From: a virus
Taxonomy: Duplodnaviria > Heunggongvirae > Uroviricota > Caudoviricetes
Reading direction: 5' to 3' (one strand)
IMG/VR virus record: IMGVR_UViG_2874920711_000013
Span: 1 to 15,952 of that record
Length of the DNA: 15,952 bases
Both the position numbers and the translations under genes were made by a program. Position 1 is the stretch's first letter. Each line of letters begins with the position of its first letter. Under the pieces are notes generated by a model. The model was not told the origin of the DNA, ran no database searches, and saw only the letters and a list, made by a program, of their open reading frames with translations. Below, in pieces: positions 1-14,838 of this stretch.

Positions 1-1199
1 TCAGGCCGGCATATACCTCAGCAGACTGATATCCCGCGCGTTTTTCTTCAGCCCCTCCACATTCAGTCCCGCGATGGCCCGGCGGTATACCATCCGGCCG
101 CCACACAGCACGCATTCAAACGGGTCACGACTCAGGAACTGCTTCACCATTTGTGCATAGCACACCTTCGCCACCGGTGCCGGTTTATCCATCCCCAGAG
201 CACGGTACACCTGCGGCAGCTTCTCTCCACACACCCGGTTGGCAAGGAACCCGAAGTACCTCACCATCTTAAAAAACTTCTCCGGGATGTGCTGTTTCAG
301 CCTCGCGACCAGCTCACGCTGTGTCAGCGTTTCCGTCGCCGTTTCTCCCGTTTTGTGGTCCAGGTAACGGAAGCTCAGGCTCGCCCCTCCGTTGTAATGT
401 GCCAGCCGGGAGGCCGCTATCGGCGGCTTCTTCAGATAACGACCCAGGTAGCGCGCCGTATTCCTCCCGCCGGCCGTTTTTTTCGACATGTACACATGCC
501 AGTATTTTCCTCCGGCTTTCAGCACCAGGCTTCTCCTCTGTGATTCCGTCGTGATATGTGACAACGACTCCGGCATCGCCAGCCCTCTGACCACGCTTTC
601 AGAAGCCGTTGCCGCATATTCCACATCCACCGCGAACGCATCGCGTCTTTCAGGAAGCTCAGCTTTTTCCACTGACCATGCTTATTCAGATCTCCACAGG
701 TTACAGACACATGTACATGCGGATGCCAGTTGAGACGACGGCCATACGTGTGGATGGCGCAGAAGATACCGGGTTCCTGCCCCCGTTTCCGGGCGGCATA
801 CAGCAGATTCTCCACCGCCAGACGGCACACGTCATTCAGCAGCCACCGGTTGCTTTCGAACACCGGCCACAGCGTGTCCGGCAGGGTGAAGACCAGGTGT
901 ACCCAGTCGCAGTCAGGAAGACGATTCAGCTGTGTCGCTATCCACAGGTCTGTGGCCTTTTTTCCGCAGGACGGGCAGGCACGGCTGCCGCATGAGTTAG
1001 TGACGTATCTGACGTGGGGGCACTCAGGTTTATCGCAGTTGTATTCCTTCACGCCCAGTATCCGCGTGCCGCAGGCCAGCATTTTGGTGACAGCCTCAAC
1101 CTCGATATCGCGCAGACCGCCCGCATCCAGGAAGGATGTCCAGCACTGGTTGGCCGTGAACAGACGTTTCAGCGGGCGGGGAGTAAAAGCGGACAACAT
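1..1199 (-). pseudogene. IS91-family (HUH-Y2 rolling-circle) transposase, split across two frames (N-part 519..1199, C-part 1..672); C-terminus runs off the window start
   Basis: N-part has a Cys-rich zinc-binding motif (CPHVRYVTNSCGSRACPSCGKK) and the HUH motif (NWHPHVHV). C-part has the YxxxYxxK two-tyrosine motif (ARYLGRYLKKPP). The two frames are reconciled by restoring one base in the C-run at 583-585. Confidence 0.8.
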
Positions 1200-1208
1200 G
1201 AGGACGGA

Positions 1209-1397
1209 TTAACCCCCGGTATCCTGTAGCCGGGTAAGGGCTGCTGTGTCGCCACGGCGCTCCAGGATGGAGGCCGCGACCATCGCAGGTGGTGGGTCCA
1301 TGGGTTTGAGCATCTTCATCCAGTCCCATTCACGTTGTGAGAGCTTCTCAGCACCAACAGAGAGCAGAACGGTATCTATACTTTTGCGGGTCAACAT
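1209..1397 (-). CDS. hypothetical 62-aa protein immediately upstream of the IS91-family transposase
   Basis: ORF from the six-frame track only; no convincing Shine-Dalgarno and no recognisable motif. Confidence 0.25.
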   Translation of the reverse strand: MLTRKSIDTVLLSVGAEKLSQREWDWMKMLKPMDPPPAMVAASILERRGDTAALTRLQDTGG

Positions 1398-1603
1398 AAG
1401 AGGATGAGTCCTTAATAAAACAGGTCCTCAGAGCATACATATTCTGCGGAGCGTGCGGCAACAACAGGACGAACAGGGGCGGTTTTCAATTTGCAGCCGT
1501 CAGGCTGCCGTGGTTCTATCTGATGTAGTTCTTACAGGCTTCAGAGTATAGGGTCAGGAGATATTCTGGAGTATTAATTGGCATTTCCGTGAAAATATCA
1601 CGT

Positions 1604-1665
1604 ATTGATAGCTTTTCATCTTCTGTGATTTGCGGGCAAATCACAGAAGGTAGTTATCTATCAAT
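1604..1665. repeat. 62-bp composite palindrome: ATTGATAG-N8-CTTCTGTGATTTG-CGGG-CAAATCACAGAAG-N8-CTATCAAT
   Basis: Read directly: 13-bp perfect inverted arms (1620-1632 / 1637-1649) around a 4-nt centre, flanked at equal 8-bp spacing by 8-bp inverted arms (1604-1611 / 1658-1665). A second inverted TTGATA/TATCAA pair lies at 1801-1806 / 1828-1833. Confidence 0.8.
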
Positions 1666-1834
1666 AATATATTTATTAATAGGCAATCGCCTGAAAATAC
1701 TCTACTTGAATAATTTCTGGTACTTACCTATTAATAAGTAGTTCATTGATTGGTTTTCACCCAAAATTATTTGGGCCAAATATTTATAGATGTTTTCCGA
1801 TTGATAATAACAAAAAAACGGCAATATCTATCAA

Positions 1835-1872
1835 CAAAAAAAAGCAGATCCCGGTCAATCAGGATCTGCTTT
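1835..1872 (-). terminator. intrinsic terminator downstream of the P4-type integrase (bidirectional hairpin)
   Basis: 8-bp stem GCAGATCC / GGATCTGC (1844-1851 / 1862-1869) with a 10-nt loop. The minus-strand transcript has a U8 tract after the stem (plus-strand A-run 1835-1842). Confidence 0.6.
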
Positions 1873-1903
1873 TCCAGTTTTAATGATTTACGCTATTTCT
1901 GAT

Positions 1904-3165
1904 TCAGGCTGCCTTATGCTGCCGCGCATAAATGTACGGCGCGACATACCCCTCGCGGCACACATCCAGATAATCCGACCACCACTGCATCATGGCCTTT
2001 CTGGCCTCCAGATGCTCTGCTTTATGCACATATGCCGCCCGCACGCTGTTGCGCTCCTGGTGGCTCATTTGCCGCTCCACCGTATCGCGTGACCACAGGT
2101 CCGACTCCACCAGGGCGCTACAGGCCATTGCCCTGAGTCCATGCCCACAGACTTCAGTTTTCGTATCATACCCATCAGACGCAGCGCCCGGTTGGTGGTG
2201 TTTTCACTCATTGGCTTGTACGGATTATGGTCGCCGGGAAACACCAGATCCAGATGGCCGGAAAGCTCCTGTATCTGTTTCAGAATGGCAATCGCCTGGC
2301 GGGAGAGCGGCACGATATGCGGGGTACGCATTTTTGCGCCACGCCCCGAAAACCGTACTTTATCAATTGCCTCGCGGGTGGCGGGAATGGTCCAGATTTT
2401 GTGCCTGAAATCGATCTCGCTCCAGCGGGCGAAACGCAGCTCGCTGGAACGGATAAACAGATGCAGCGTCAGCCCCACCGCCAGCCGGGTTAACTCCCGG
2501 CCCTGCCGGTAGTCGCCAATGCGGCCAAGCAGTTCAGGCAATCGCTCCAGCGGTAAAGCGGGATAGTGATTCTTTACGGGTGAGGCGACAACGCCATCCA
2601 GATGCTGCGCCGGATTGCTTGCGGTCAGTCCCTGCTGAACGGCATAGCGCATGATGTTGCTGAGTTGCTGCCGGGTTCGGGACGCGACTTCCAGGAAGCC
2701 TTTATCCTCAATAATCAGCAGTAAAGCCGTGAAATCCTGCGTTTTAAGCGTGGCAACGGGCAGATGACCAATCGCCGGGAAGATATGGTTTTCCATACTG
2801 GCGAGAATACGGGCGGCATACTCAGCCGACCATTTTTTGTTGGTTTTGTGCCAGGCCAGCGCCACCGCCTTAAAGCACTTTTCAGGGGAGCAGGCTGCTT
2901 TCTCTGCCATGCGCTGCTGCGCCGGGTTGATATTCTGCGCCAGTAACTTACGGATACCGTCGCGCTGCTGCCTGGCTTCTGCCAGTGAGGCCAGCGGATA
3001 TGCGCCAAGACTGACTCTGGATTCTTTTCCGTTGAAACGATATTTGCGATACCAGATGCGTGAACCGCTCGGATTGACGAGCAGATACAGACCGTGAGAG
3101 CCGGAGAGTTTTACCGGACGGGAAGAGGGTTTTAACTTGCGGATTTTAGAATCGTTTAAAGACAT
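1904..3165 (-). pseudogene. P4-type tyrosine integrase (DUF4102 N-terminus plus phage-integrase catalytic domain), interrupted by one frameshift
   Basis: N-terminus MSLNDSKIRKLKP...GLYLLVNPSGSRIWYRKYRF is typical of P4-like integrases; ATG at 3165 with GGAG upstream. The catalytic C-terminus (HGLRAMACSALVES...SHQERNSVRAAYVHKAEHLEARK) is in another frame (1904..2182). The frames are reconciled by one extra base in the C-run at 2171-2173. The gene sits beside the 3' side of tRNA-Asn in the same orientation. Confidence 0.85.
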
Positions 3166-3326
3166 TTGAGGGTCACTCCAGAATCGAACCAAACTGCCCC
3201 CAGATCTGACCACCAAATTATCCCGATGCGGAGAGAAAACTAGATACGCACCGGGAAGGATTTTCACGCTAACTTACTGAATCGTAAACAAATAGAAACG
3301 TACAGATAAGCATGAAAACTTGAATT

Positions 3327-3402
3327 TGGCTCCTCTGACTGGACTCGAACCAGTGACATACGGATTAACAGTCCGCCGTTCTACCGACTGAACTACAGAG
3401 GA
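3327..3402 (-). tRNA. asnT: tRNA-Asn (anticodon GUU)
   Basis: 76-nt sequence on the minus strand, TCCTCTGTAGTTCAGTCGGTAGAACGGCGGACTGTTAATCCGTATGTCACTGGTTCGAGTCCAGTCAGAGGAGCCA, matching the E. coli Asn tRNA with encoded CCA. The asnT name comes from its position next to mtfA. Confidence 0.95.
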
Positions 3403-4393: not shown

Positions 4394-4483
4394 GGAGAGA
4401 TGCCGGAGCGGCTGAACGGACCGGTCTCGAAAACCGGAGTGGGGGCAACTCCACCGGGGGTTCAAATCCCCCTCTCTCCGCCA
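4394..4483 (+). tRNA. serU: tRNA-Ser (anticodon CGA), class II tRNA with long variable arm
   Basis: 90-nt sequence GGAGAGATGCCGGAGCGGCTGAACGGACCGGTCTCGAAAACCGG...GGTTCAAATCCCCCTCTCTCCGCCA; anticodon loop CU-CGA-AA. Confidence 0.95.
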
Positions 4484-4528: not shown

Positions 4529-4559
4529 CTTGGAATTACTTGGAATATTTTCTTGGAAT
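4529..4559. repeat. three direct CTTGGAAT repeats between the serU 3' end and the end of int (candidate integrase arm-type sites)
   Basis: CTTGGAAT at 4529-4536, 4539-4546 and 4552-4559. The last two are a 13-bp tandem repeat inside the final int codons (ENIPRKYSK). Confidence 0.45.
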
Positions 4560-5561
4560 ATTTTCAGGTAACGGGACATCAAGTGTCGGTGAAACTTTAA
4601 CCTTCCTGTCATAGATTAGCACTTGCCCCTCGGTTTTGTGACCAGAGAAAAGTTGCTTATCCCGACTGCTTCCTTCATAGTCTGAAATTCCTTTCGCCTT
4701 CAGATCATGAAAGGTGAAGTCGGTTAAAATACCTGAAATTTTGCCTGCGCGATTTCTTGCTTCTACCCACATTTCGTTAAAGCCTTTGTACATATATCGG
4801 TTGCCGTATTGATTGCTGATTACATAGGCGGATGTTGGTAACTGTTTTGCTTTTTCGATCGCCGCCTGTAATCGTGGACTCCATGCTTTTATCTGTTTTT
4901 TTCCTGTTTTCCCTTGCTGGATAAAGATCCCGTCGTTTCCAATCTGCTCCCATTTCAGCGATAACACATCGGAAACCCTCGCTGCACACAGATAGGCAAT
5001 TTCCATTGCGATAAAAACAGGAAGAGGTGCAACGCTTAATACTGCCTGGTATTCTTTGTCGGTTACATATCGTTCGCGGTTTTTGGCCTTGAATTTACTT
5101 ACACCTGCACATGGGTTAGCCTTCACGTACCCTCGCTCATACCCCCAACTGTAAACGCGGGACATACTGCTTTTTTCATGGTTGGCTTGCGTTTTACTCT
5201 GTTCCCCTCTCTTGTCCATGTATCGACGGATGTGTTCTGGTTTTATGGAATCTGCCGGCACCTTACCGAATACGGCAAGCAACTTTTTTTGATGTTGCAG
5301 ATAATCTTTTTGTGTTCTTGGACTGAGGTCACTGTAATAGGCGCTGGCGAGGAATTTTTCCCACAAGCGACCGAATGTCATTGCACGATCGCGATTATTT
5401 ACAGTTTCCTCATACTTTTTCCATAAAGCAGCTAAACCATCCTTGATGGCGGTTAGTGTTACAGATTCTCTGGATGTTGGTTTCCATACATAACTATATT
5501 TATTTGGGTATACATTTGGAGGTAATTTTTCGTGTTCAGGATTTTTCCTTCGTCTTCCCAT
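4536..5561 (-). CDS. int: prophage integrase, lambda-Int family tyrosine recombinase, 341 aa
   Basis: N-terminus MGRRRKNPEHEKLPPNVY resembles the lambda Int arm-binding domain. Catalytic region carries R (AARVSDV), K (QGKTGKK), H (FTFHDLK), H (SGHKTEG) and Y (VLIYDRK). The gene converges on the serU 3' end and is coupled to the upstream xis (TGATG overlap at 5559-5563). Confidence 0.9.
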   Translation of the reverse strand: MGRRRKNPEHEKLPPNVYPNKYSYVWKPTSRESVTLTAIKDGLAALWKKYEETVNNRDRAMTFGRLWEKFLASAYYSDLSPRTQKDYLQHQKKLLAVFGKVPADSIKPEHIRRYMDKRGEQSKTQANHEKSSMSRVYSWGYERGYVKANPCAGVSKFKAKNRERYVTDKEYQAVLSVAPLPVFIAMEIAYLCAARVSDVLSLKWEQIGNDGIFIQQGKTGKKQIKAWSPRLQAAIEKAKQLPTSAYVISNQYGNRYMYKGFNEMWVEARNRAGKISGILTDFTFHDLKAKGISDYEGSSRDKQLFSGHKTEGQVLIYDRKVKVSPTLDVPLPENIPRKYSK

Positions 5562-5730: not shown

Positions 5731-6644
5731 GGCTGTGTCCCTTAATCATCTGAGCTATAGTAACTGTCTGTTTACACAACATATTGAACTATGGCTCGCT
5801 ACGACCTTCCCGATGAGGCATGGACCATCATCAAGCCCCTGTTACCTCCTGAACCCGCCACACCACGGGCCGGACGCCCATGGGCTGAGCACCGTAAAAT
5901 CATCAATGGCATGTTCTGGGTGTTATGTTCCGGTGCACCATGGCGCGATTTACCCGAACGATATGGGTCATGGAAAACTGTTTATAACCGCTTTAACCGA
6001 TGGTCAAAGTCAGGCGTGATTAATATTATTTTCAACAGGTTGCTTTCGCTACTTGATGCAAACGGCTTTATTGACTGGTCTGCCACCGCGCTGGATGGCA
6101 GTAATATCCGGGCGCTGAAATGTGCCGCCGGTGCTCAAAAAAACATCCCGATATCGACGGAGATAATGGGCTGGGTCGCTCTCGCGGCGGTTTTGGCACC
6201 AAAATCCATCTGGCAACAGACGGAAGTGGCCTCCCGTTAAATATCGTGCTAAGCCCGGACAAGCTCATGAAAGCCAGTTCGCGCAACGACTTCTGGACGG
6301 GATTGGCGTTCAGCGTCAGAACGGCAGCATGAAACGCCGTGGACATGCGGTACTGGCTGATAAAGCGTATTCAGGGCGCGCATTGCGCAACGAGCTGAAA
6401 AATAACGGTATAAAGGCAGTAATCCCCGAAAGTCAAATGAGAAAATGGCATCGGATGGACGTGCACAGCTTGATCGTGATGCGTACTGCAATCGTAATGT
6501 CGTTGAACGGTGCTTTGGGCGGCTGAAAGAATATCGCCGCATCGCCACGCGTTACGACAAAACGGCGAGAAATTACCTGGCGATGGTGAAACTGGGCTGC
6601 ATCCGACTCTTTTATCAACGCTTACGTAATTAAGGGACACAGCC
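5731..6644 (+). mobile_element. IS5-family (IS427-like group) insertion sequence, 914 bp, inserted in xis
   Basis: Perfect 16-bp terminal inverted repeats GGCTGTGTCCCTTAAT (5731-5746; reverse complement at 6629-6644) flanked by a TA direct duplication (5729-5730 and 6645-6646). The transposase begins MARYDLPDEAWTIIKPLLPP. Confidence 0.8.
5791..6633 (+). pseudogene. IS5-family transposase (OrfA/OrfB), reading frame broken at three homopolymer sites
   Basis: Conserved transposase segments lie in four successive frames (5791-6240, 6120-6332, 6329-6526, 6445-6633), including ADKAYSGRALRNELKNNGIKAVIPESQ and ERCFGRLKEYRRIATRYDKTARNYLAMV. Shifts are at the A7 run 6137-6143, CCCGG at 6254-6258 and AAA at 6435-6437; each is -1. 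The A7 site could be a natural programmed frameshift. Confidence 0.75.
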
Positions 6645-6738: not shown

Positions 6739-8010
6739 TTAAAAATCAGCCTGACTCGGGATCAGTTTTTGCCAGATAGCTGAAACGTATTTTGCCTGGT
6801 AACGAGCGTCATCAAGTGCATTATGGCGCTCACCTTCGAATGGAATAGCCGTTCTGGCATCGAAGTCTATGGCTTTCCCCAGCTCAACGATTGTGCGTAC
6901 ATCGCGATCGTTGTAGTAACGCCACGGGCAGGGGATCCCCTGCCGTTCGTATGAACGGCGCAAAATCGTGTTGTCGAAGTTGGCTCCATTTCCCCAGACC
7001 TGAACAAAAAATTCACCGGAGTTTTCGTCGATAAATTCCCGCAATTGTAACAGTGCATCATCTAACGGGATTTCATCGGTCATAATGGCAGATTGCGCTT
7101 CGCGTGATTGCTTAAGCCACCATTTAATGGTGTCCCGATCAATGACTCCGCCAGCAGTTTCCAGATCGATAGTCTTACTAAATTCGGGTCCCATATCTCC
7201 GGTTTGCGGATCGAAAAATATTGCACCTATTGAGATGATCGGGGCATCAGGATTTTTTCCCATGGTTTCAAGGTCGATCATTAGATGGTCACACGTCCTG
7301 CTGGTGGATGTGATTTCGTGATGACCATTCACCGTAATTAAGGGATCTGCCGTCTCGCCAGTTTTACTATCGCTGGCGTGGTCCTGAGCGCTGCCAGCAT
7401 TCTCCTTGTGTGGATGTTCAGCGCCTTCCATTTCCTCCGGATCATTTTCCTGAACTTCAACCTGATTCTCTTCATCGAATGTTTTCTGGTATGTTGCGTC
7501 GTCCATCACCGCGCCACAATCAGGGTAGTTGCCGCCACCGCTCTGACCGCAGGCGGTGCAGACTTTTTCCGGTTCCTGTTGCGCTACTGGTTCGGATTGT
7601 TTCGTTTCTGGCTCGTTTTGTAACGCATTTGGGCTGTTTTGTTCCGCTTTTTGGTCGTTCCGTTCCGATTCATGCTGGTTCTGGTTCACAGAATCGCGAG
7701 TCTGGATCCCCTTGACCCATTTCGGATCATTAGGGTCGCTAATCCCCTCAACAAATTCACCACGCGATACAGCAAGTAACTTATCGGCGTCAGGCTGGCT
7801 GATATTGGCTGCCTGCATAATTTTGTTTACTTCGTCAGCGGTGACTTTTACTTGGTTAGCGGAACTCACCTGCGACTGAGCATCCAGCGACTGCGCGTTC
7901 TGGCAATGTTCAGTTGTATCCGGTTCCATTGTTTCAGTTGTTGCCTGTTCACCTGCCATTGCGTCAGATGGTTGTGGTTTTTCTTCTTCTGTTTCACGCT
8001 CAGTAACCAC
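6739..8010 (-). CDS. prophage exonuclease: DnaQ-like DEDDh 3'-5' exonuclease domain after a long acidic low-complexity region; true 5' end uncertain
   Basis: C-terminal domain has the three DEDDh motifs: [21 protein letters not shown] and [14 protein letters not shown]. The listed start is a GTG with a poor ribosome-binding site. Coding-like sequence continues upstream in another frame (8045..8219) across an A5 run at 8038-8042. Confidence 0.75.
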
Positions 8011-8163
8011 CTCGCGGTTAATTTCTTCCAGGATATCTTTTTCCGGCGTATGCCGGGCAGCTGTGAGAGTTTCCTTGCTGGGTTCTCGTGATCAGTTTCT
8101 GTCAAATAGGCGTTGATATACCCCTGAAGGCGTCCCGGGTAGTGATAAAATTCAGGGGTGCGC

Positions 8164-9177
8164 TTAGGATAAGTGCAAAAATAGCGGCGCGGGAATAGTC
8201 CAGAATACCCGGGTTGCACGAAGTGCTGCGGACCATTCTTTGAACGGACTTTCTTTTTTCAGGACTACTTCTTTTGCGCGACGATAAACGCTGCCCGGAA
8301 TTTCATAAATATTAAAATCCATCGGAAGTGTGGCTGCTGCAATCTCCACATCCAGTGTGTCGAGGGTGTGTACTAAATTCGGATTGCGATCGGTTTTGTT
8401 CCCACCGCCAGCATTAGCACCGGAAGCCGTGCGGGTGATGCGTGAAACACGATTTCCTTTCATCCACTCTTTTGTCAGCAGACCCCGATCAGTGTAGTCA
8501 GCGTCCAGGTATGCTTCGAAAAAAGCAGTTATTAGTCCCAGGTCTGAATTACCAGGATTAGGGAAAACTTTGTCAGTGTCACGAACCAGTTTGTGGAGGT
8601 CGCGAATCTCCAGCGAGTCGAGCAGACTGGTTTTATGCGAAATAGCCAGGGCAGTAACAGCCGGTAGTTCTTCAGCCCGTGCAATGTGTAATGCCTGGAG
8701 TTCGTCGCGTGAAACGTGCGTTACTGGTTTTTCGCTGCCGTGTTGAGCAAGCCAACGAATGGGCAGTTCCTGACCGGAGACAGGTAGAAGCATGCTCTCC
8801 TCAATCTCAGTCATGTCTTCGCCGTTGATGTTGGTATTATCAGTGCTGGCTGATTTGTCCTGAACAGAGGGGGAAGGGCCGATAAATGTCATTGTGATGC
8901 CATCTTTCCCGCCTTTTTCATAGCGGTTGCAGAATTCAGTATCAAACACGCCTTCTGGCGGAAGGTCGTCAACAACGGGCAAATTGACGCGGACGGGTTT
9001 TTTAAAGTCGTCTTCATCATAATCGTTGTCATCCATTGCGGTAATGCAGCGGGAGATTGCAACAGATAATTTTTTTGCTGTAGTCCAGTAAAAACCACCT
9101 TTAATTCCTAGGCGTTTTCTTACTTTGACATTTTTTGCTTCGCAATATAGTGCAAATTCTTCTTTATCAGTGCTCAT
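8164..9177 (-). CDS. prophage protein of unknown function, 337 aa; possibly the N-terminal part of a larger exonuclease protein
   Basis: Long ORF with ATG at 9177. It occupies the ydfE-like position after ydfD in a Qin-type gene order. It is in the same frame as the exonuclease ORF. Confidence 0.6.
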
Positions 9178-9270
9178 TATTGATAAACCTCATCACAGAT
9201 TTAAGGGTGAACAAATCTCTGCCATTGCTGACATATAAGAATGAAACTGGATATTTATTACGGTGCTGTT

Positions 9271-9462
9271 TTAAAATCCTGCCGGGATTTCGTTATTATC
9301 CTGGTGAATAACTTTATCGACCGGATAACAGTTGCCTGGAATTTTCTGTTCGGTTGCTGCTGCCATACATTCCTGCATTGTTCTGTGAACACTGACTGCA
9401 ATATCAACTGGCTCTCCGGAAACAAGAAAAACCGTCAGAATAAGTGCAAATACTGGATTCAT
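9271..9462 (-). CDS. ydfD: YdfD-like small membrane/lysis protein, 63 aa
   Basis: MNPVFALILTVFLVSGEP... with a hydrophobic N-terminal segment. Its start overlaps the dicB stop (TCAT at 9459-9462). Length and position match Qin-prophage ydfD. Confidence 0.7.
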   Translation of the reverse strand: MNPVFALILTVFLVSGEPVDIAVSVHRTMQECMAAATEQKIPGNCYPVDKVIHQDNNEIPAGF

Positions 9463-9647
9463 TGTGCACATCCTTTTGGCATCAGACGTAAACGGGCCAG
9501 CATTGAAACAATGCATACTTTATTTAATAACTCCCGTTCGTGTTTTCTTTTGTTAATGGCCTCTTCAGTAAATACAGGATTACTGATAGTGACACCAATT
9601 TCAAAACAACCTTCAGACGTATTAACGTTTGGTAATAACGTTTTCAT
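9459..9647 (-). CDS. dicB: DicB cell-division inhibitor, 62 aa
   Basis: MKTLLPNVNTSEGCFEIGVTISNPVFTEEAINKRKHERELLNKVCIVSMLARLRLMPKGCAQ. GAGGG ribosome-binding site 8 nt upstream of the ATG at 9647. It lies directly downstream of DicF. Confidence 0.85.
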   Translation of the reverse strand: MKTLLPNVNTSEGCFEIGVTISNPVFTEEAINKRKHERELLNKVCIVSMLARLRLMPKGCAQ

Positions 9648-9820
9648 TATCGCGCCCTCAACAATGAGTTTTGTGATGCGGTGCCTGGTGCCTCCAGGTG
9701 ACGTTAACCAGTTAACAATTAACGCCGGATACAGAGAATCCACCCATAACACTGTTTTTGGTTTTAACTGTTCCGCGTGCGCTTAGCCGCATTCACCGCA
9801 TCACAAAATTCACTTTAAAA

Positions 9821-9873
9821 AGGGCGGCAGAGCAGTCACGGAGTAAAACTGATACCGCCAAACGTCACCAGAA
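9821..9873 (-). ncRNA. dicF: DicF small regulatory RNA (Hfq-dependent antisense RNA, ftsZ inhibitor)
   Basis: Minus-strand sequence TTTCTGGTGACGTTTGGCGGTATCAGTTTTACTCCGTGACTGCTCTGCCGCCC followed by a T-run (9816-9820). The terminator hairpin is GGCGG...CCGCC. Identification is from my recollection of the DicF sequence. Confidence 0.8.
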
Positions 9874-10215
9874 AATTGATAACAGAGGGCGTTGCAGCGG
9901 GGTTGTCACTTAAGCGTATGGTCAACCTGACAACCCGGTGTCCTCAACGGGGGAAGGAATAACCCCGCCATACTTACCGCCGCGCCATTTCGCGGATTGC
10001 CACAACCGGAAGCGCACGGTCGACGAAAATTTAACGACAGGCTATCTATGAACCAGCTACCTCGCCGTGCGCTTTCGCGTTATGGTCTGACTTTTCAGGG
10101 AAATATCCTTTCAGTAAACTGTCAGTGCCGGATGCTCACCCGTGTCCGGCGCACGCACTCCACCTCACCCGTGGAGAACTCCTTAATTACTAACCTTAGC
10201 TTTGTTGATTAGCTA

Positions 10216-10434
10216 CTAACGCGGGTATGTAATCATTCTGGCAATGCTTAATGCCGCTGCTTTTTCCAGATTGGTGATATCCTGCTCCAGAGCGGACAGA
10301 TTTTCAGCCTGCTTAGCCCTGGCTTCATTAGCCCATTTCAGATCCTGCGCTGCATTAATTTTCTGGCGCATCCACTCATAAAGTTCATCATCGGTATAGT
10401 CTGGCGCGATGATGACGGGTTCTCGTTTCTGCAC
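10216..10434 (-). CDS. ydfC: YdfC-like prophage protein, 72 aa (GTG start)
   Basis: GTG start at 10434 preceded by GAGGA 6 nt upstream. Size and position match Qin-prophage ydfC. Confidence 0.7.
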   Translation of the reverse strand: MQKREPVIIAPDYTDDELYEWMRQKINAAQDLKWANEARAKQAENLSALEQDITNLEKAAALSIARMITYPR

Positions 10435-10463
10435 GCTGATTCCTCGCGGTGCTGTTTCGCTTA

Positions 10464-10592
10464 TCAGCCGTTAGATTTTGCCGAACTGGAAAGCGCCTGT
10501 TTAAATTCGCTGAAGCTGAGAGCTTCTTCGCCTTCGGCAAGGCCTTCGAAGTATTCTTCGTAAGCCTTTTCCATGATTGTGTCGAAATCCAT
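10464..10592 (-). CDS. ydfB: YdfB-like small acidic protein, 42 aa (shorter than the 60-aa cutoff of the ORF track)
   Basis: Found by hand: ATG at 10592 with AGGTGG 7 nt upstream, encoding MDFDTIMEKAYEEYFEGLAEGEEALSFSEFKQALSSSAKSNG. It is tightly packed after ydfA (stop 10594-10596). Confidence 0.65.
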   Translation of the reverse strand: MDFDTIMEKAYEEYFEGLAEGEEALSFSEFKQALSSSAKSNG

Positions 10593-10593
10593 A

Positions 10594-10749
10594 TCACCCA
10601 CCTGAATTTCTTTCCAGCCAGCGACGCGCTCCAGATTCGGTTTTAAACGTTTTGCTTTTGGTATACGTCATTGCGGTGAAGGTGCCGTCCTGGTTGGGAA
10701 ACACGCCGTACACCAGAGATTCGTTGTTGCCAAGATCGATAGTATCCAT
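10594..10749 (-). CDS. ydfA: YdfA-like small protein, 51 aa
   Basis: ATG at 10749 with GAGG 7 nt upstream, encoding MDTIDLGNNESLVYGVFPNQDGTFTAMTYTKSKTFKTESGARRWLERNSGG. The longer track ORF (to 10872) reads into the IS66 end and is not native. Confidence 0.7.
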   Translation of the reverse strand: MDTIDLGNNESLVYGVFPNQDGTFTAMTYTKSKTFKTESGARRWLERNSGG

Positions 10750-10893
10750 GCTGACCTCATTTCCCCTTAACGCCGGGGTAGCGGAACAAAAACCTGCTGC
10801 ATAGTTATTAAGTAAGCGCCCCATCAGCGACGTCTTGTGAAAATTGTCCTGTCTGGCAACAATCGCGCCCATCTATATTGATGGACACGAACG

Positions 10894-11568
10894 ATGAATT
10901 CCCAGACAACAAAAGATATTCCCTGCTTCCGTTCTTATTTGCCTGATGCCCTGCGTTTAAGATTTGAAGATAAACTGACCATCCGGGCCATCGCTCAGCG
11001 TCTGGGTCTCAGTCATTCCACAATACATACGCTTTTTCAGCGATTTCTTGCATCCGGTATCGCATGGCCATTGCCCGATTCAGTTTCATTCGCTCAACTT
11101 GACGCCATCCTTTATGCCAACAGAAAGAAGGAATTAACAGAGCCTCAAATCAGAGAAGGCTCATGGCGAAAAGAACGGCGAACCAGCTATAGCCGTGAAT
11201 TTAAGGCCCGTCTGGCTAAGCAGGCGTTACAGCCTGGGGCTGTTGTTGCCCGGATCGCCAGAGAACACGATATCAATGATAACCTGCTGTTTAAATGGAA
11301 AAGCCAGTACGAGGACGGCTTACTGAGCGATGATGACATACAGGAATGCATGCCTGTCCCGGTGGCACTGACTGATACGCCGGAGCCGACCAGACCAGTT
11401 ACAAATCCCTTCTGGCGTAACAAGCATGATGAGCGCCCTGAGGGGGCTCCCGGAAACGTCCCACGGTGCGAGCTGCATCTTAAATCAGGTGTGGTAAAAC
11501 TGTTTGACCCTCTCACTCCGGAACTGTTACGGGCGCTAATCCGCGAAATGAAAGGGGGTATCCGATGA
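10894..11568 (+). CDS. IS66-family accessory protein OrfA (helix-turn-helix), 224 aa
   Basis: C-terminal half (RRTSYSREFKARLAKQALQPGAVVARIAREHDINDNLLFKWKSQYEDG) matches the IS66/IS3-type OrfA pattern. ATGA overlap with the next gene at 11565-11568. Confidence 0.7.
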   Translation: MNSQTTKDIPCFRSYLPDALRLRFEDKLTIRAIAQRLGLSHSTIHTLFQRFLASGIAWPLPDSVSFAQLDAILYANRKKELTEPQIREGSWRKERRTSYSREFKARLAKQALQPGAVVARIAREHDINDNLLFKWKSQYEDGLLSDDDIQECMPVPVALTDTPEPTRPVTNPFWRNKHDERPEGAPGNVPRCELHLKSGVVKLFDPLTPELLRALIREMKGGIR

Positions 11569-11912
11569 TAACGCTGCCGACCGGTACCAGAATCTGGATC
11601 ATCGCTGGCATCACAGATATGCGTTGTGGCTTCAATGGCCTGGCTTCGAAGGTGCAGAACACGCTGAAAGATGACCCGTTCTCCGGGCATATCTTCGTCT
11701 TCCGGGGCCGCAGTGGCAAAATGGTGAAAATACTGTGGGCCGATCGTGACGGGTTATGCCTGTTCGCCAAACGCCTGGAACGGGGCCGCTTCGTCTGGCC
11801 GGTGACCCGGGAAGGGAAAGTGCACCTGACGCCAGCTCAGTTATCCATGCTACTGGAGGGGATCGCGTGGCAACATCCCAAACGGACAGAACGGCCTGGC
11901 ATCCGGATATAA
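11565..11912 (+). CDS. IS66-family TnpB (Orf2), 115 aa
   Basis: MITLPTGTRIWIIAGITDMRCGFNGLASKVQ...KMVKILWADRDGLCLFAKRLERGRFVWP is the characteristic IS66 Orf2 sequence. Confidence 0.85.
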   Translation: MITLPTGTRIWIIAGITDMRCGFNGLASKVQNTLKDDPFSGHIFVFRGRSGKMVKILWADRDGLCLFAKRLERGRFVWPVTREGKVHLTPAQLSMLLEGIAWQHPKRTERPGIRI

Positions 11913-11931
11913 CCCGTGATAAAACAAGGGA

Positions 11932-13487
11932 ATGAACAATGAACTCCCCGATGATATTGAGCTGCTTAAAGCCATGTTGCGTAAGCAACAGAGTCGGCTT
12001 CGACAGTATGCCTGTCAGGTCGCGGGCTATGAGCAGGAAATTGAACGGCTGAAAGCGCAACTCGACAGGTTGCGTCGTATGTTGTTCGGCCAGAGTTCAG
12101 AGAAAAAGCGTCATAAGCTTGAAAATCAGATCCGACAGGCAGAAAAACGACTGTCGGAACTGGAAAACCGGCTGAACACAGCCAGAAATCTTCTGGAAGA
12201 TGCATCGTCAGTCACAGATTCACCTGACACCAGTCCCCCGTCAGAAAACCCGATCGCCAGTAAGCCTGAATCCCCGGGAGACACATCGCCTTCTGCCTGC
12301 TGAAACCAGTTGCCCGGCCTGTGGAGGTGTTCTGAAAGAAATGGGGAAACAATCTCAGAGCAACTGGATATCATTAATACCGCCTTTAAAGTTATCGAAA
12401 CCATACGTCCCAAACTGGCCTGTAGCCGGTGTGATGTCATCGTTCAGGCACCACTTCCCCTAAACCGATCGAACGCGGTTATGCCAGTGCAGGGTTACTT
12501 GCACGGATCCTGGTCAGCAAATATATGGAACATATCCCTTTATATCGCCAGTCAGAAATATACGCGCGACAGGGCGTGGAGCTGAGCCGTAATACCATGG
12601 TGCGCTGGGTATCAGAAATGGCAGACAAACTCCGTCCTCTGTATATAGCGCTGAATGACTATGTTCTGGAGGCAGGAAAGGTGCACGCAGATGACACTCC
12701 GGTGAAAGTACTGGCCCCGGGGAACGGAAAGACGAAAACGGGTCGTCTGTGGGTATACGTCAGGGATGATCGTAATGCGGGTTCATCCCTGCCGGCAGCC
12801 GTCTGGTTCGCGTATTCGGCAGATCGCAAAGGAGAACATCCGCAGCTCCACCTGGCAAAGTATCAGGGCGTACTGCAGGCTGATGCCTATGCAGGTTATA
12901 ACGTACTGTACGAAACGGGCCGGGTGAAGGAAGCCGGGTGCCTGGCCCACGCCCGCCGAAAAATCCATGACGAGGATGTGCGCCGTCCGACAGAAATGAC
13001 TCAGGAAGCGCTCAGACGGATAGCAGAGTTATACGACATAGAAGCGGAGATACGTGGCAGTCCGGCAGAGGAACGGCTTGCAGTCAGAAAAGCCAGAAGC
13101 GTCCAGTTGATGCAGTCGTTGTACGACTGGATACAGTTGCAGAGGAAAACGCTGTCGAAATATGCGGAGATGGCGAAGGCGTTCGACTATATCCTGAATC
13201 ACTGGAATGCGCTGAACGAGTTCTGTCGTGACGGCTGGGTGGAAATAGACAACAACATCGGTGAAAACGCGTTACGATCGGTGGCGGTTGGAAGAAAAAA
13301 TTATCTCTTTTTCGGCTCAGACAAGGGAGGAGAAAGTGCGGCGATCATCTACAGTCTGCTGGTCACCTGCAAACAGAACGAAGTGGAGCCGGAGGACTGG
13401 TTGCGCGAAGTGATCGAGAAGCTCAATGACTGGCCGTCGAACCAAGTGCATGAACTGCTGCCCTGGAACTTCTCGTCTGTAAAATAA
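11932..13487 (+). pseudogene. IS66-family transposase TnpC, broken by four single-base frameshifts
   Basis: N-terminal coiled coil (11932-12303), CxxC segment LPAETSCPACGG (frame of 12200-12463), SEQLDII...[16 protein letters not shown] (frame of 12310-12585) and the DDE domain LYRQSEIY...HADDTPV...[10 protein letters not shown] (12525-13487) lie in different frames. Shift sites are GGG 12276-12278, CC/TT near 12289-12292, GGGG 12343-12346 and CCCC 12457-12460. Confidence 0.85.
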
Positions 13488-13639
13488 TCCTTACGCTACG
13501 TACTTCTCGGGGCGCTTACGTTATTAAAGTTGAACCCTGCCGTCATGTTCTTACGCCTCGGGCTGGCTACTTAACCCCTGACCACTGCCTGGTAACTCGA
13601 AGTATTGCCCTGCATTCTGTGGGCGGGGTGGGTGGCAGG

Positions 13640-13690
13640 CATATAATGTACTTTGCGTTCATTGTTGTAAAGTACTTTTAGTACATTTTG
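13640..13690 (-). promoter_or_regulatory. candidate leftward early promoter (pL-like) with flanking operator half-sites
   Basis: On the minus strand: -35 TTTACA (13666-13671), 17-bp spacer, -10 CATTAT (13643-13648). The heptamer ATGTACT or its complement occurs at 13647-13653 and 13680-13686, with palindromic AGTACT at 13671-13676. Confidence 0.4.
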
Positions 13691-13761: not shown

Positions 13762-14181
13762 TTAAGAGGCTTTTTGTTTTTTCTTTCGTGCTAACTCTTC
13801 GTAAATTGCATTGTACTTCTGTTTTTTCTCTTCAAGAGTTTTTAAAAGTTCATCTGTCTCACTGTCAGGGAGCTCGTCCAGAAGGTCAATGATGATTTTT
13901 TGTCTTGGATTTAACTCCTGATAGAAACGTACCTGTCCACTTTCTTCTGTATCCTCTCCCAAAAGATAGGTTGGTGTTGTTCCTATTAGTGTTGCTAATT
14001 CCCTTAATTTCTCCCGGCGAGGAATTGTTTCGCCATTAAACCATTTGCTAACCGCTTTTGGTGTTAATTTCATTCGACGGGCAATTTCTGCCTGCCTTCC
14101 ATGTTGTTCATAACCAGCGTTTTCACAGGCTAGCGCAAGCCTACTGGCGAACTCTTTACGCGCTTTATCTTCATGAACCAT
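13762..14181 (-). CDS. dicA: prophage repressor, DicA/RacR-like (N-terminal XRE-type helix-turn-helix, no peptidase domain), 139 aa
   Basis: Helix-turn-helix region FASRLALACENAGYEQHGRQAEIARRMKLTPKAVSKWFNGETIP with a charged C-terminal tail. It is divergent from the Cro-like gene and, once IS66 is removed, lies directly upstream of ydfA-ydfB-ydfC-dicF-dicB. The dicA name is by synteny only. Confidence 0.75.
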   Translation of the reverse strand: MVHEDKARKEFASRLALACENAGYEQHGRQAEIARRMKLTPKAVSKWFNGETIPRREKLRELATLIGTTPTYLLGEDTEESGQVRFYQELNPRQKIIIDLLDELPDSETDELLKTLEEKKQKYNAIYEELARKKKQKAS

Positions 14182-14260
14182 AAGTTCAATGATATTCGCT
14201 CTTGAATGTACTGTCAGTTCTGTTATAGCATGTACTCAAAGTTCACATTGTGAGGGTGAT
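14182..14260. promoter_or_regulatory. divergent immunity control region (back-to-back pRM-like and pR-like promoters with operators)
   Basis: Leftward: -35 CTGACA (14212-14217), 17-bp spacer, -10 TATCAT (14189-14194), 7 nt before the repressor ATG, implying a leaderless transcript. Rightward: -35 TTGAAT (14202-14207), -10 near 14224-14229, GAGGGTG ribosome-binding site at 14253-14259. ATGTACT heptamers at 14206-14212 and 14230-14236. Confidence 0.5.
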
Positions 14261-14515
14261 ATGAACCAGAAAACACTTGAAGATGTAATCAAAACTGTTC
14301 GCGTTGCTGTTGTGGCCGACGTTTGTGGTGTCAGCCAAAGAGCAATCTATAAATGGATGGATAACGGAAAATTGCCTCGCACAGAATATACCGGCGAAAC
14401 AAATTACGCTGAAAAAATCGCTCTTGCATCAAACGGATTATTTTCTGCCGATGCAATTTTAACTATTGGCAGGAATAAAACTACTACGAAAAAGCTGATG
14501 GGAGTTGATTCATGA
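14261..14515 (+). CDS. Cro-like / YdaS-like helix-turn-helix protein, 84 aa
   Basis: ATG at 14261 with ribosome-binding site; helix-turn-helix segment VADVCGVSQRAIYKWMDNGKLP. Divergent from the repressor and translationally coupled to the next gene (ATGA at 14512-14515). Confidence 0.7.
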   Translation: MNQKTLEDVIKTVRVAVVADVCGVSQRAIYKWMDNGKLPRTEYTGETNYAEKIALASNGLFSADAILTIGRNKTTTKKLMGVDS

Positions 14516-14838
14516 AAATCAAGCATGAACACATCCGCATGGCGATGAATGCCTGGGCGCATCCGGACGGCGAAAAAGTACCGGCTGCGAAAATTACCAA
14601 AGCGTATTTCGAGCTGGGAATGACGTTCCCGGAACTGTATGACGACAGCCATCCGGAAGCCCTGGCTCGCAATACTCAGAAAATTTTCCGCTGGGTGGAG
14701 AAAGACACCCCTGATGCGGTTAAAAAAATTCAGGCGTTGTTACCAGCTATCGAAAAAGCAATGCCACCTCTGCTGGTGGCCCGAATGCGCAGTCATAGCT
14801 CAGCCTATTTTCGGGAACTAAATAGCTGCGCGGAATAG
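14512..14838 (+). CDS. YdaT-like protein, 108 aa
   Basis: N-terminus MKIKHEHI matches what I recall of Rac-prophage YdaT. The stop codon TAG (14836-14838) lies 2 bp before the IS630 left end. Confidence 0.6.
   Translation: MKIKHEHIRMAMNAWAHPDGEKVPAAKITKAYFELGMTFPELYDDSHPEALARNTQKIFRWVEKDTPDAVKKIQALLPAIEKAMPPLLVARMRSHSSAYFRELNSCAE

What the first reader, a model, noticed from the sequence alone, without database searches (positions are those of the whole stretch)
9271..10749. Cell-division and lysis cargo (ydfA-ydfB-ydfC-DicF-dicB-ydfD) is intact in an otherwise crippled prophage
All six small elements have undisturbed reading frames, start codons and ribosome-binding sites, while the mobility functions are disrupted. 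The 42-aa ydfB was recovered by hand because it is below the ORF-track cutoff. Retention of this module argues for selection on the cargo.
Basis: partly seen in the sequence, partly recalled or inferred. Interest (0 to 1): 0.4.

Follow-up and report, generated by a model that had tools for sequence, protein, structure and literature searches.

The report
Known dicBF operon, cut from promoter
This is the well-known dicBF cell-division and lysis operon of a Qin-like prophage remnant: all its genes are intact, but an insertion sequence separates them from their promoter, and nothing here shows that selection preserved them.

Summary
On the minus strand at 9271-10749 lie full-length ydfA, ydfB, ydfC, DicF, dicB and ydfD. 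The proteins are 89-100% identical to E. coli K-12 and DicF is identical at all 53 bases.

"Intact" is true only for the coding sequence. A 2708-bp ISSfl3 element (10812-13519, with an 8-bp target duplication) sits 55-62 nt upstream of the ydfA start. It lies between ydfA and the only good promoter candidate, a pL-type promoter with operator repeats at 13643-13671, next to an intact DicA-like repressor gene. In K-12 the whole operon, including DicF, comes from one promoter upstream of ydfA. The module here is therefore probably weakly expressed or silent; this is inferred, not measured.

The selection argument is not supported:
- The six elements make up only about 14% of the surviving prophage DNA, so three to six disruptive events miss them by chance 40-64% of the time.
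- Across 89 other loci, dN/dS of the module genes (0.13-0.35) matches that of neighbouring genes (0.05-0.30).
- Among six assemblies that share the insertion, the module varies about as little as int and xis.
- Deposited temperate phage genomes carry the module too.

The idea that dicBF is kept for host benefit was already published. Ordinary, already known.

The parts
10594..10749 (-). ydfA (51 aa, DUF1391), first gene of the operon
   Evidence: 49/51 aa identical to K-12 YdfA. Pfam PF07151 at 99.4 bits.
10464..10592 (-). ydfB (42 aa)
   Evidence: 42/42 aa identical to K-12 YdfB. Annotated as ydfB in identical E. coli copies.
10216..10434 (-). ydfC (72 aa, GTG start)
   Evidence: 218/219 nt identical to K-12. 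The only difference is GTG instead of ATG at the start.
9822..9874 (-). DicF small RNA
   Evidence: Rfam RF00039 at 76.7 bits, E = 9e-16, full model. 53/53 identical to K-12 dicF.
9459..9647 (-). dicB (62 aa), cell-division inhibitor
   Evidence: 59/62 aa identical to K-12. Pfam PF05358 at 132 bits and NCBIfam NF049927 at 130.7 bits against a cutoff of 100.
9271..9462 (-). ydfD (63 aa, DUF1482), lysis protein in K-12
   Evidence: 56/63 aa identical to K-12. Pfam PF07358 at 87.9 bits. The function comes from PMC8835842.
10750..10811 (-). Last 62 nt of the native operon leader, including the ydfA ribosome-binding site, still attached to ydfA
   Evidence: Identity to E. coli L001/L002 ends at 10811. 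The last ~40 nt also align to K-12.
10812..13519 (+). ISSfl3 (IS66 family) inserted in the leader. Its tnpA/tnpB/tnpC genes are on the + strand, antisense to the operon. It is flanked by the 8-bp direct repeats GTTATTAA at 10804-10811 and 13520-13527.
   Evidence: 99.5-99.8% identical to annotated ISSfl3 copies. NCBIfam IS66 TnpA at 284 bits and IS66 transposase at 350 bits. The junctions and duplication were read directly. tnpC is split into 123 + 320 aa.
13528..13642 (-). Upstream part of the native leader, now 2.7 kb away from ydfA
   Evidence: Collinear with the uninterrupted E. coli locus L002.
13643..13671 (-). Predicted pL-type promoter of the operon (TTTACA-17-CATTAT), overlapped by AGTACAT operator-like repeats at 13646-13652 and 13680-13686
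   Evidence: It is the only consensus match pointing at the operon on the minus strand between 9100 and 14188. All four AGTACAT heptamers in the window lie here or in the repressor/cro intergenic region. Its position is equivalent to K-12 dicBp (PMC10448788). Predicted, not mapped.
13762..14181 (-). DicA-like immunity repressor (139 aa, HTH_3, no peptidase domain), open reading frame
   Evidence: Pfam HTH_3. NCBIfam DicA subfamily at 56.8 bits, below the cutoff of 101. Identical gene in L002.
14261..14515 (+). cro-like gene, divergent from the repressor
   Evidence: Corresponds to the L002 helix-turn-helix regulator. Weak HTH matches.
14512..14838 (+). ydaT-family gene truncated by IS630 (IS630 runs from about 14818 to the end of the window)
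   Evidence: Similarity to L002 ends at 14820. The IS630 match is 99.7%.
6739..9180 (-). Exonuclease gene (Exonuc_VIII plus Rv2179c-like domains; 813 aa in relatives), interrupted here by three 1-bp deletions
   Evidence: ORFs of 337 and 423 aa.
5731..6644 (.). IS5-family element (ISSfl7-like) inserted in the 5' part of the xis-like DUF4224 gene
   Evidence: 99.7% identical to annotated IS5-family/ISSfl7 copies. Inverted repeats GGCTGTGTCCCTTAAT were read directly.
4536..5561 (-). Prophage integrase ORF (341 aa, open) next to the tRNA-Ser attachment site (4394-4483)
   Evidence: Pfam Phage_integrase. tRNA-Ser found. The same length is seen in 28 other loci. RefSeq flags near-identical E. coli copies as frameshifted.

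Best explanation
The region is the dicBF operon (ydfA-ydfB-ydfC-dicF-dicB-ydfD). It is the early-left, pL-type operon of a Qin-like lambdoid prophage integrated at tRNA-Ser beside mtfA. The host is an IS-rich lineage; Shigella or enteroinvasive E. coli is inferred from the IS content and was not verified. The source is NCBI CP026824.1.

From work in K-12:
- DicF pairs with ftsZ and other mRNAs.
- DicB redirects MinC to the septum and blocks entry of some phages.
- YdfD causes lysis by blocking IspG.
- A DicA-type repressor keeps the operon off.

In this window the coding sequences are unchanged. However, a 2.7-kb ISSfl3 element, oriented antisense to the operon, has transposed into the transcribed leader between the pL-type promoter/operators and ydfA. 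All six products depend on that one upstream promoter. Any transcript must now cross 2.7 kb of untranslated antisense IS RNA. The module is therefore most likely poorly expressed or silent. This step is inferred, not shown.

The clean reading frames are best explained by three things: the small target size, the recent origin of the DNA (100% identical to copies in E. coli), and the purifying selection that acts on these genes in circulating phages. Host selection for the cargo in this lineage is not needed to explain them.
For: Identity of the module. The same gene order is annotated in E. coli and K-12.

IS insertion:
- Collinearity with uninterrupted E. coli loci breaks at 10811/13520, with an 8-bp duplication.
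- The insert is ISSfl3.

Promoter:
- The only minus-strand consensus promoter pointing at the operon is at 13671-13643.
- No promoter was found between 9100 and 13640. A laxer scan of the last 650 nt found only one 8/12 match, about 520 nt upstream.
- Operator-like heptamers occur only at the two regulatory regions.
- The K-12 promoter lies about 77 nt or more upstream of the ATG, which is also beyond the insertion point.
- The K-12 operon has a single promoter, and DicF is processed from the polycistronic RNA (PMC10448788).

Age of the insertion: the junction is absent from 5426 complete E. coli genomes. It is shared by six NCBI assemblies in two subclades.

No special constraint on the module:
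- dN/dS is 0.13-0.35 for module genes, against 0.05 for int, 0.13 for xis, 0.30 for exo and 0.08 for ydaT.
- Within the six assemblies there are 0/934 variable coding sites, 2/697 module noncoding sites, 9/2442 in exo, and 2 events in 1289 bp of int+xis.

The module is ordinary phage equipment: 60 deposited phage genomes carry it, 5 of them nearly whole at 96-98% identity.
Against: - No expression data exist for this strain.
- Read-through from the promoter across the IS, or a weak promoter inside the IS, cannot be excluded by sequence alone.
- The promoter itself is predicted, not mapped.
- The module coding sequence has zero changes in all six assemblies, while the adjacent exonuclease gene has 9 substitutions and two independent disruptions. 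The chance of no change in 934 bp under one uniform rate is about 0.08-0.10 (my calculation).
- The module is present at >=80% coverage in 2484 of 5426 E. coli genomes, against 1237 for the neighbouring exonuclease block.
Confidence: 0.7

Rival explanations
1. One reading: the host keeps the dicBF module intact because its products are useful (DicB-mediated phage exclusion, DicF regulation of division and metabolism), while the rest of the prophage decays neutrally.
For: Published benefits of DicB and DicF, and the published hypothesis of retention (PMC6832061; PMC5069750). Zero coding changes in the module across six assemblies, against two independent exonuclease disruptions. The module is about twice as prevalent as the exonuclease block in E. 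coli genomes. K-12 Qin shows the same pattern of an intact module beside ydfE and intQ pseudogenes.
Against: The operon is cut from its promoter in this lineage. dN/dS is no lower than in neighbouring genes. int and xis are as invariant as the module. The small target makes a clean escape likely by chance (P about 0.4-0.64). The module is standard in active phages. ydfABC are absent or replaced in many dicB loci.
Confidence: 0.15
2. Adaptive silencing: the ISSfl3 insertion was favoured because it disarms a toxic operon. The lineage can then tolerate loss or failure of the repressor, and the genes persist only as unexpressed passengers.
For: The operon is toxic when derepressed (PMC10448788 and PMC5069750). 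The insertion is shared by two subclades. In one of them (L092, L095) the DNA beyond the IS is a holin/antiterminator segment rather than the repressor and promoter, yet the module is still intact.
Against: IS expansion in such lineages is usually attributed to drift. A single insertion cannot distinguish selection from chance. The repressor gene is still open in this window.
Confidence: 0.12
3. The operon is still expressed despite the IS. This could occur by read-through from the pL-type promoter across ISSfl3, or from an unrecognised promoter inside the IS or at its left end. In that case the module remains functional with altered regulation.
For: Only one weak intrinsic-terminator-like site lies on the minus strand inside the IS (10990-10976). 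An in-frame ATG at 10872 inside the IS extends the ydfA ORF to 92 aa.
Against: No consensus promoter faces the operon between 9100 and 13640. Long untranslated antisense RNA is a typical substrate for Rho-dependent termination (established knowledge, not tested here).
Confidence: 0.2

Closest known systems
dicBF operon of the Qin cryptic prophage, E. coli K-12 (ydfABC-dicF-dicB-ydfDE under dicBp, repressed by DicA)
   Same: Same gene order and content. The proteins are 89-100% identical and DicF is identical. The operon likewise sits beside a DicA/DicC-type immunity region in a defective lambdoid prophage.
   Different: The integration site differs: tRNA-Ser/mtfA here, ynfP-rspB in K-12. The immunity type differs: the repressor matches the DicA model only below its cutoff, and the operators are AGTACAT-type. 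ydfC starts with GTG. Most importantly, a 2.7-kb ISSfl3 sits between the promoter and ydfA.
The same prophage at tRNA-Ser/mtfA in commensal and pathogenic E. coli (for example strains MLI114 and 1-62)
   Same: 99.7% identical from xis to ydfA, and 100% identical across the module.
   Different: Those copies have an uninterrupted leader and no IS elements. The window also lacks everything beyond ydaT.
Early-left (pL) operon host-division inhibitors of lambdoid phages, such as lambda kil (cited in PMC3961180) and the dicB modules of mEp460, Tritos and Stx-converting phages
   Same: Small toxic proteins or RNA transcribed leftward from a repressor-controlled promoter. The module is present in 60 deposited phage genomes.
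   Different: Those copies sit in phage genomes deposited as complete and are expressed on induction. Here the phage is a stump of about 10 kb, and the operon is detached from its promoter.

Membership tests
dicBF operon (Qin type) | Gene order ydfA-ydfB-ydfC-dicF-dicB-ydfD on one strand | tested here: met
   The same order is annotated in K-12 and other E. coli.
dicBF operon (Qin type) | DicF RNA matching Rfam RF00039 above the gathering score | tested here: met
   76.7 bits against 48, with the full-length model. 53/53 identical to K-12.
dicBF operon (Qin type) | DicB protein matching PF05358 and NF049927 above the curated cutoffs | tested here: met
   132.1 bits (cutoff 27) and 130.7 bits (cutoff 100).
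dicBF operon (Qin type) | YdfA (DUF1391) and YdfD (DUF1482) full length | tested here: met
   99.4 and 87.9 bits, with full profile coverage.
dicBF operon (Qin type) | A single repressor-controlled promoter directly upstream of ydfA driving the whole polycistronic RNA | tested here: not met
   The predicted promoter and operators at 13643-13686 are separated from ydfA by the 2708-bp ISSfl3. The requirement comes from PMC10448788. The genes belong to the family, but the transcription unit is not intact.
dicBF operon (Qin type) | DicF pairs with ftsZ mRNA; DicB inhibits division through MinC; YdfD lyses cells | not testable with these tools
   The targets are not in the window, and there is no expression or phenotype data. 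Inferred from sequence identity to the K-12 products and the literature.
ISSfl3 (IS66 family) | tnpA-tnpB-tnpC genes, terminal inverted repeats starting GTAAGCG, and an 8-bp target duplication | tested here: met
   The repeats and the GTTATTAA duplication were read.
ISSfl3 (IS66 family) | Full-length transposase TnpC (about 533 aa) | tested here: not met
   TnpC is split into 123 and 320 aa. The copy is about 36 bp shorter than the one in L092.
Lambdoid immunity region | Divergent repressor and cro genes, with repeated operators at both the pR and pL sides | tested here: met
   The repressor (13762-14181, minus strand) and cro (14261-14515, plus strand) are divergent. AGTACAT repeats occur only at 13646-13686 and 14206-14236. 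Binding was not tested.

The most novel reading that the evidence does not exclude
The ISSfl3 insertion in the dicBF leader was not a neutral accident. It may have been a fixed, adaptive rewiring step in a Shigella/EIEC lineage. One version is a silencer that let the lineage lose the prophage repressor without dying. The other is a new source of repressor-independent transcription of DicF and DicB.
Probability: 0.12. Interest if true: 0.35.

Novelty: already known. Interest (0 to 1): 0.12.

Why it matters
It matters little beyond annotation. The genes, their functions, their regulation and the retention-by-selection hypothesis are all published for E. coli.

The useful correction is that open reading frames do not make an operon intact. 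Here an IS has uncoupled a toxic prophage operon from its only known promoter, so gene-presence calls for DicF and dicB in this lineage may overstate function.

Two further points bear on the selection argument. The module is now seen in deposited temperate phage genomes. Its dN/dS also matches that of neighbouring phage genes. Both weaken the inference that conservation reflects host benefit.

Tried and rejected
- **Source organism.** Searching the literature for the source accessions (CP026824, CP026875, CP027027, AERN, UYIS) found nothing. The organism name is therefore inferred only from IS content.
- **Species-representative genomes.** The scan gave only six dicB loci. Two of them (L005, L006) carry frameshifts in several module genes at once. 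I read these as likely low-quality assemblies, did not verify that, and did not count them as decay.
- **Automatic "broken" calls.** My first automatic classification marked 12 ydfA and 7 ydfB copies as broken. On inspection most are intact alleles with a different C-terminus, or junctions where ydfC is replaced. I did not use those counts as pseudogene rates.
- **Outward promoter in the IS.** I looked for one at the IS left end and for a hybrid -35/-10 at the junction. None reached 9/12, and the best was 8/12 about 520 nt upstream.
- **Promoter inside the 62-nt leader.** I considered that the true promoter might lie there. I rejected this because the K-12 promoter and the predicted local one both lie further upstream.
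- **Wrong coordinates.** The first attempt at the cro coordinates was off by one base.

Full report
**What is there**

The window is a lambdoid prophage stump integrated at tRNA-Ser(cga) (4394-4483), beside mtfA and tRNA-Asn. All genes of the finding are on the minus strand.
- Translation and comparison with E. coli K-12 MG1655 Qin give ydfA 10594-10749 (49/51 aa identical) and ydfB 10464-10592 (42/42).
- ydfC 10216-10434 differs from K-12 only in having a GTG start instead of ATG.
- dicB is at 9459-9647 (59/62) and ydfD at 9271-9462 (56/63).
- Rfam places DicF at 9822-9873 with 76.7 bits against a gathering score of 48. The 53-nt K-12 DicF is matched 53/53.
- Pfam and NCBIfam confirm DUF1391, DicB and DUF1482 above their cutoffs.

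**The surroundings**

No complete E. coli genome holds the window as a whole. Comparison with two E. coli genomes that carry the same prophage (L001, L002) splits the window into native DNA and three insertions.
- An IS5-family (ISSfl7-like) element at 5731-6644 sits inside the xis-like DUF4224 gene.
- ISSfl3 (IS66 family) is at 10812-13519, flanked by the 8-bp duplication GTTATTAA.
- IS630 starts at about 14818 and truncates ydaT.

The 813-aa exonuclease gene (6739-9180) carries three 1-bp deletions. An exact-protein look-up identifies the source as NCBI CP026824.1. It also shows that IS630 is followed by a DUF1398 gene and then host mlrA. No replication, lysis or structural genes lie beyond ydaT within the 21-kb locus read. 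"Crippled prophage" is correct, although the 341-aa integrase ORF is open.

**The key correction**

ISSfl3 lies 55-62 nt upstream of the ydfA ATG.
- In the uninterrupted E. coli locus, 297 bp separate the repressor gene from ydfA.
- In that spacer the only consensus promoter pointing at the operon is TTTACA-17-CATTAT, at window 13671-13643.
- The promoter is overlapped by AGTACAT repeats. All four copies of that heptamer in the 15.9-kb window lie here or in the repressor/cro intergenic region. That is the pattern expected of OL and OR operators.
- The K-12 counterpart (TTGACC-17-TAATCT) ends 77 nt upstream of its ATG, and homology between the two leaders covers only the last ~40 nt.

On either model the IS sits between the promoter and ydfA. 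Its transposase genes are on the plus strand, antisense to the operon. No promoter match faces the operon between 9100 and 13640. A laxer scan of the last 650 nt gave one 8/12 match about 520 nt upstream.

In K-12, Ragunathan et al. showed three relevant things (PMC10448788):
- The operon is transcribed from dicBp upstream of ydfA.
- No internal promoter was found.

So all six elements here depend on transcription crossing 2.7 kb of antisense IS. Reduced or absent expression is the likely outcome. That is my inference from established polarity of long untranslated RNA; it is not measured.

**History of the insertion**

The IS/ydfA junction is absent from all 5426 complete E. coli genomes. Six NCBI assemblies share it and fall into two subclades. 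In one subclade (L092, L095) the DNA beyond the IS right end is a holin/antiterminator segment rather than the promoter and repressor, so the module there is fully severed. The insertion therefore predates the split of these lineages, and the reading frames have stayed open since.

**Is the clean state more than chance?**

*Target size.* The six elements total 934 bp of about 6.7 kb of surviving native prophage DNA in the window (14%).
- With three secure disruptive events (the three IS insertions), the chance that none hits them is 0.86^3, or 0.64.
- Counting the three exonuclease deletions as well gives 0.40.
- If the unit is taken as promoter-to-ydfD, one of the three IS elements did hit it.

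*Variation among the six sister assemblies.*

| Region | Length (bp) | Variable sites or events |
|---|---|---|
| Module coding | 934 | 0 |
| Module noncoding | 697 | 2 |
| Exonuclease gene | 2442 | 9 substitutions, a nonsense mutation in one subclade, and the window-private deletions |
| int + xis | 1289 | 2 events |

- Under one uniform rate, the chance of zero changes in 934 bp is about 0.08-0.10.
- Leaving out the exonuclease gene, it is about 0.2-0.3.

The module is thus as quiet as int and xis. Only the exonuclease gene stands out.

*The three window-private deletions.* All lie in G/C homopolymer runs. Three sister assemblies have an open 813-aa gene and the other two have only a nonsense mutation. 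The deletions may therefore be sequencing errors.

**Population view**

I fetched 86 further dicB loci and scored 89 loci in all.
- Pooled dN/dS over unique alleles is 0.13 (ydfA), 0.26 (ydfB), 0.35 (ydfC), 0.20 (dicB) and 0.26 (ydfD).
- For the neighbours it is 0.05 (int), 0.13 (xis), 0.30 (exo), 0.29 (cro) and 0.08 (ydaT).

Everything is under purifying selection and the module is not special. dicB and ydfD always travel together (dicB is ascertained by the search). DicF is present in most loci. ydfABC are missing or replaced in a sizeable minority. Most automatic "broken" calls were allelic variants.

The module block is present at >=80% coverage in 2484 of 5426 E. coli genomes, against 1237 for the exonuclease block. 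It also occurs in 60 deposited phage genomes, five nearly whole at 96-98% identity, including induced coliphages and Stx-converting phages. It is therefore ordinary early-left equipment of circulating lambdoid phages. That alone explains sequence conservation and recently acquired intact copies.

**What it does**

These functions come from the literature and were not tested here.
- DicF represses ftsZ, xylR, pykA and manX mRNAs (PMC5069750; PMC10448788).
- DicB sends MinC to the septum and blocks phages that inject through ManYZ (PMC6832061).
- YdfD is a lysis protein that inhibits IspG (PMC8835842).
- A DicA-type repressor keeps the operon off. The repressor gene here is open. It matches the DicA model below its cutoff and lacks a cleavage domain.

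**Comparison and verdict**

The genes are members of the Qin-type dicBF operon by every sequence criterion. The one defining feature not met is the contiguous promoter. The retention-by-benefit idea was stated by Balasubramanian et al. 2016 and supported by later work from the same group. Nothing here is new in kind.

The finding is a correct identification with an over-reading. The frames are intact and the transcription unit is not. The data neither require nor clearly show selection on the cargo in this lineage.

Noticed in passing
window 8079-8083, 8157-8158, 8210-8214: The three frameshifting 1-bp deletions in the exonuclease gene all fall in G/C homopolymer runs and sum to -3. They are private to this assembly: three sister assemblies have an open 813-aa gene and two have only a nonsense mutation. 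They may be sequencing errors rather than real decay.
   Followed up: partly
window 10812-13519: This ISSfl3 copy is itself defective. tnpC is split into 123- and 320-aa ORFs, and the copy is about 36 bp shorter than the one at the same site in L092. In L093 a second ISSfl3 is nested inside it.
   Followed up: partly
window 10594-10872 (-): The public gene call for ydfA in this assembly is a 92-aa ORF that starts at an ATG inside the IS left end. This is probably a longest-ORF artefact, but it served as an exact-match handle for finding sister genomes with the same junction.
   Followed up: yes
L092 1-3312 and L095: In a sister subclade, the DNA beyond the ISSfl3 right end is a Q-antiterminator/TolA-like/holin segment on the same strand as the module, instead of the repressor and promoter. 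This points to an IS-mediated rearrangement that leaves the module downstream of late-gene DNA.
   Followed up: partly
window 10432-10434: ydfC starts with GTG here and in the identical E. coli copies, but with ATG in K-12. This is the only nucleotide difference in that gene.
   Followed up: no
window 1-3402: A P4-type integrase (2065-3267, minus strand) lies next to tRNA-Asn (3327-3402). In E. coli MLI114 this integrase heads the yersiniabactin island. Here it is followed by split IS91-family transposase fragments (1-1199), which suggests the island was lost or replaced.
   Followed up: no
phage records H78-H92: The dicBF module is now present in 60 deposited phage genomes (for example vB_EcoS-689R5, Tritos, mEp460 and Stx2-converting phages). 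A 2016 paper reported that phage databases had no DicB or DicF hits.
   Followed up: partly
L005 and L006 (genome contigs): Two species-representative assemblies (E. coli ECGI0523 and Shigella flexneri SFBU0723) show multiple frameshifts across ydfA, ydfB, ydfC and ydfD at once. This looks like indel-rich assembly error rather than biology.
   Followed up: no
window 13646-13686 and 14206-14236: All four AGTACAT heptamers in the window lie in the two regulatory regions flanking the repressor gene (expected 1.1 by chance). They are candidate operator half-sites of this immunity type.
   Followed up: partly
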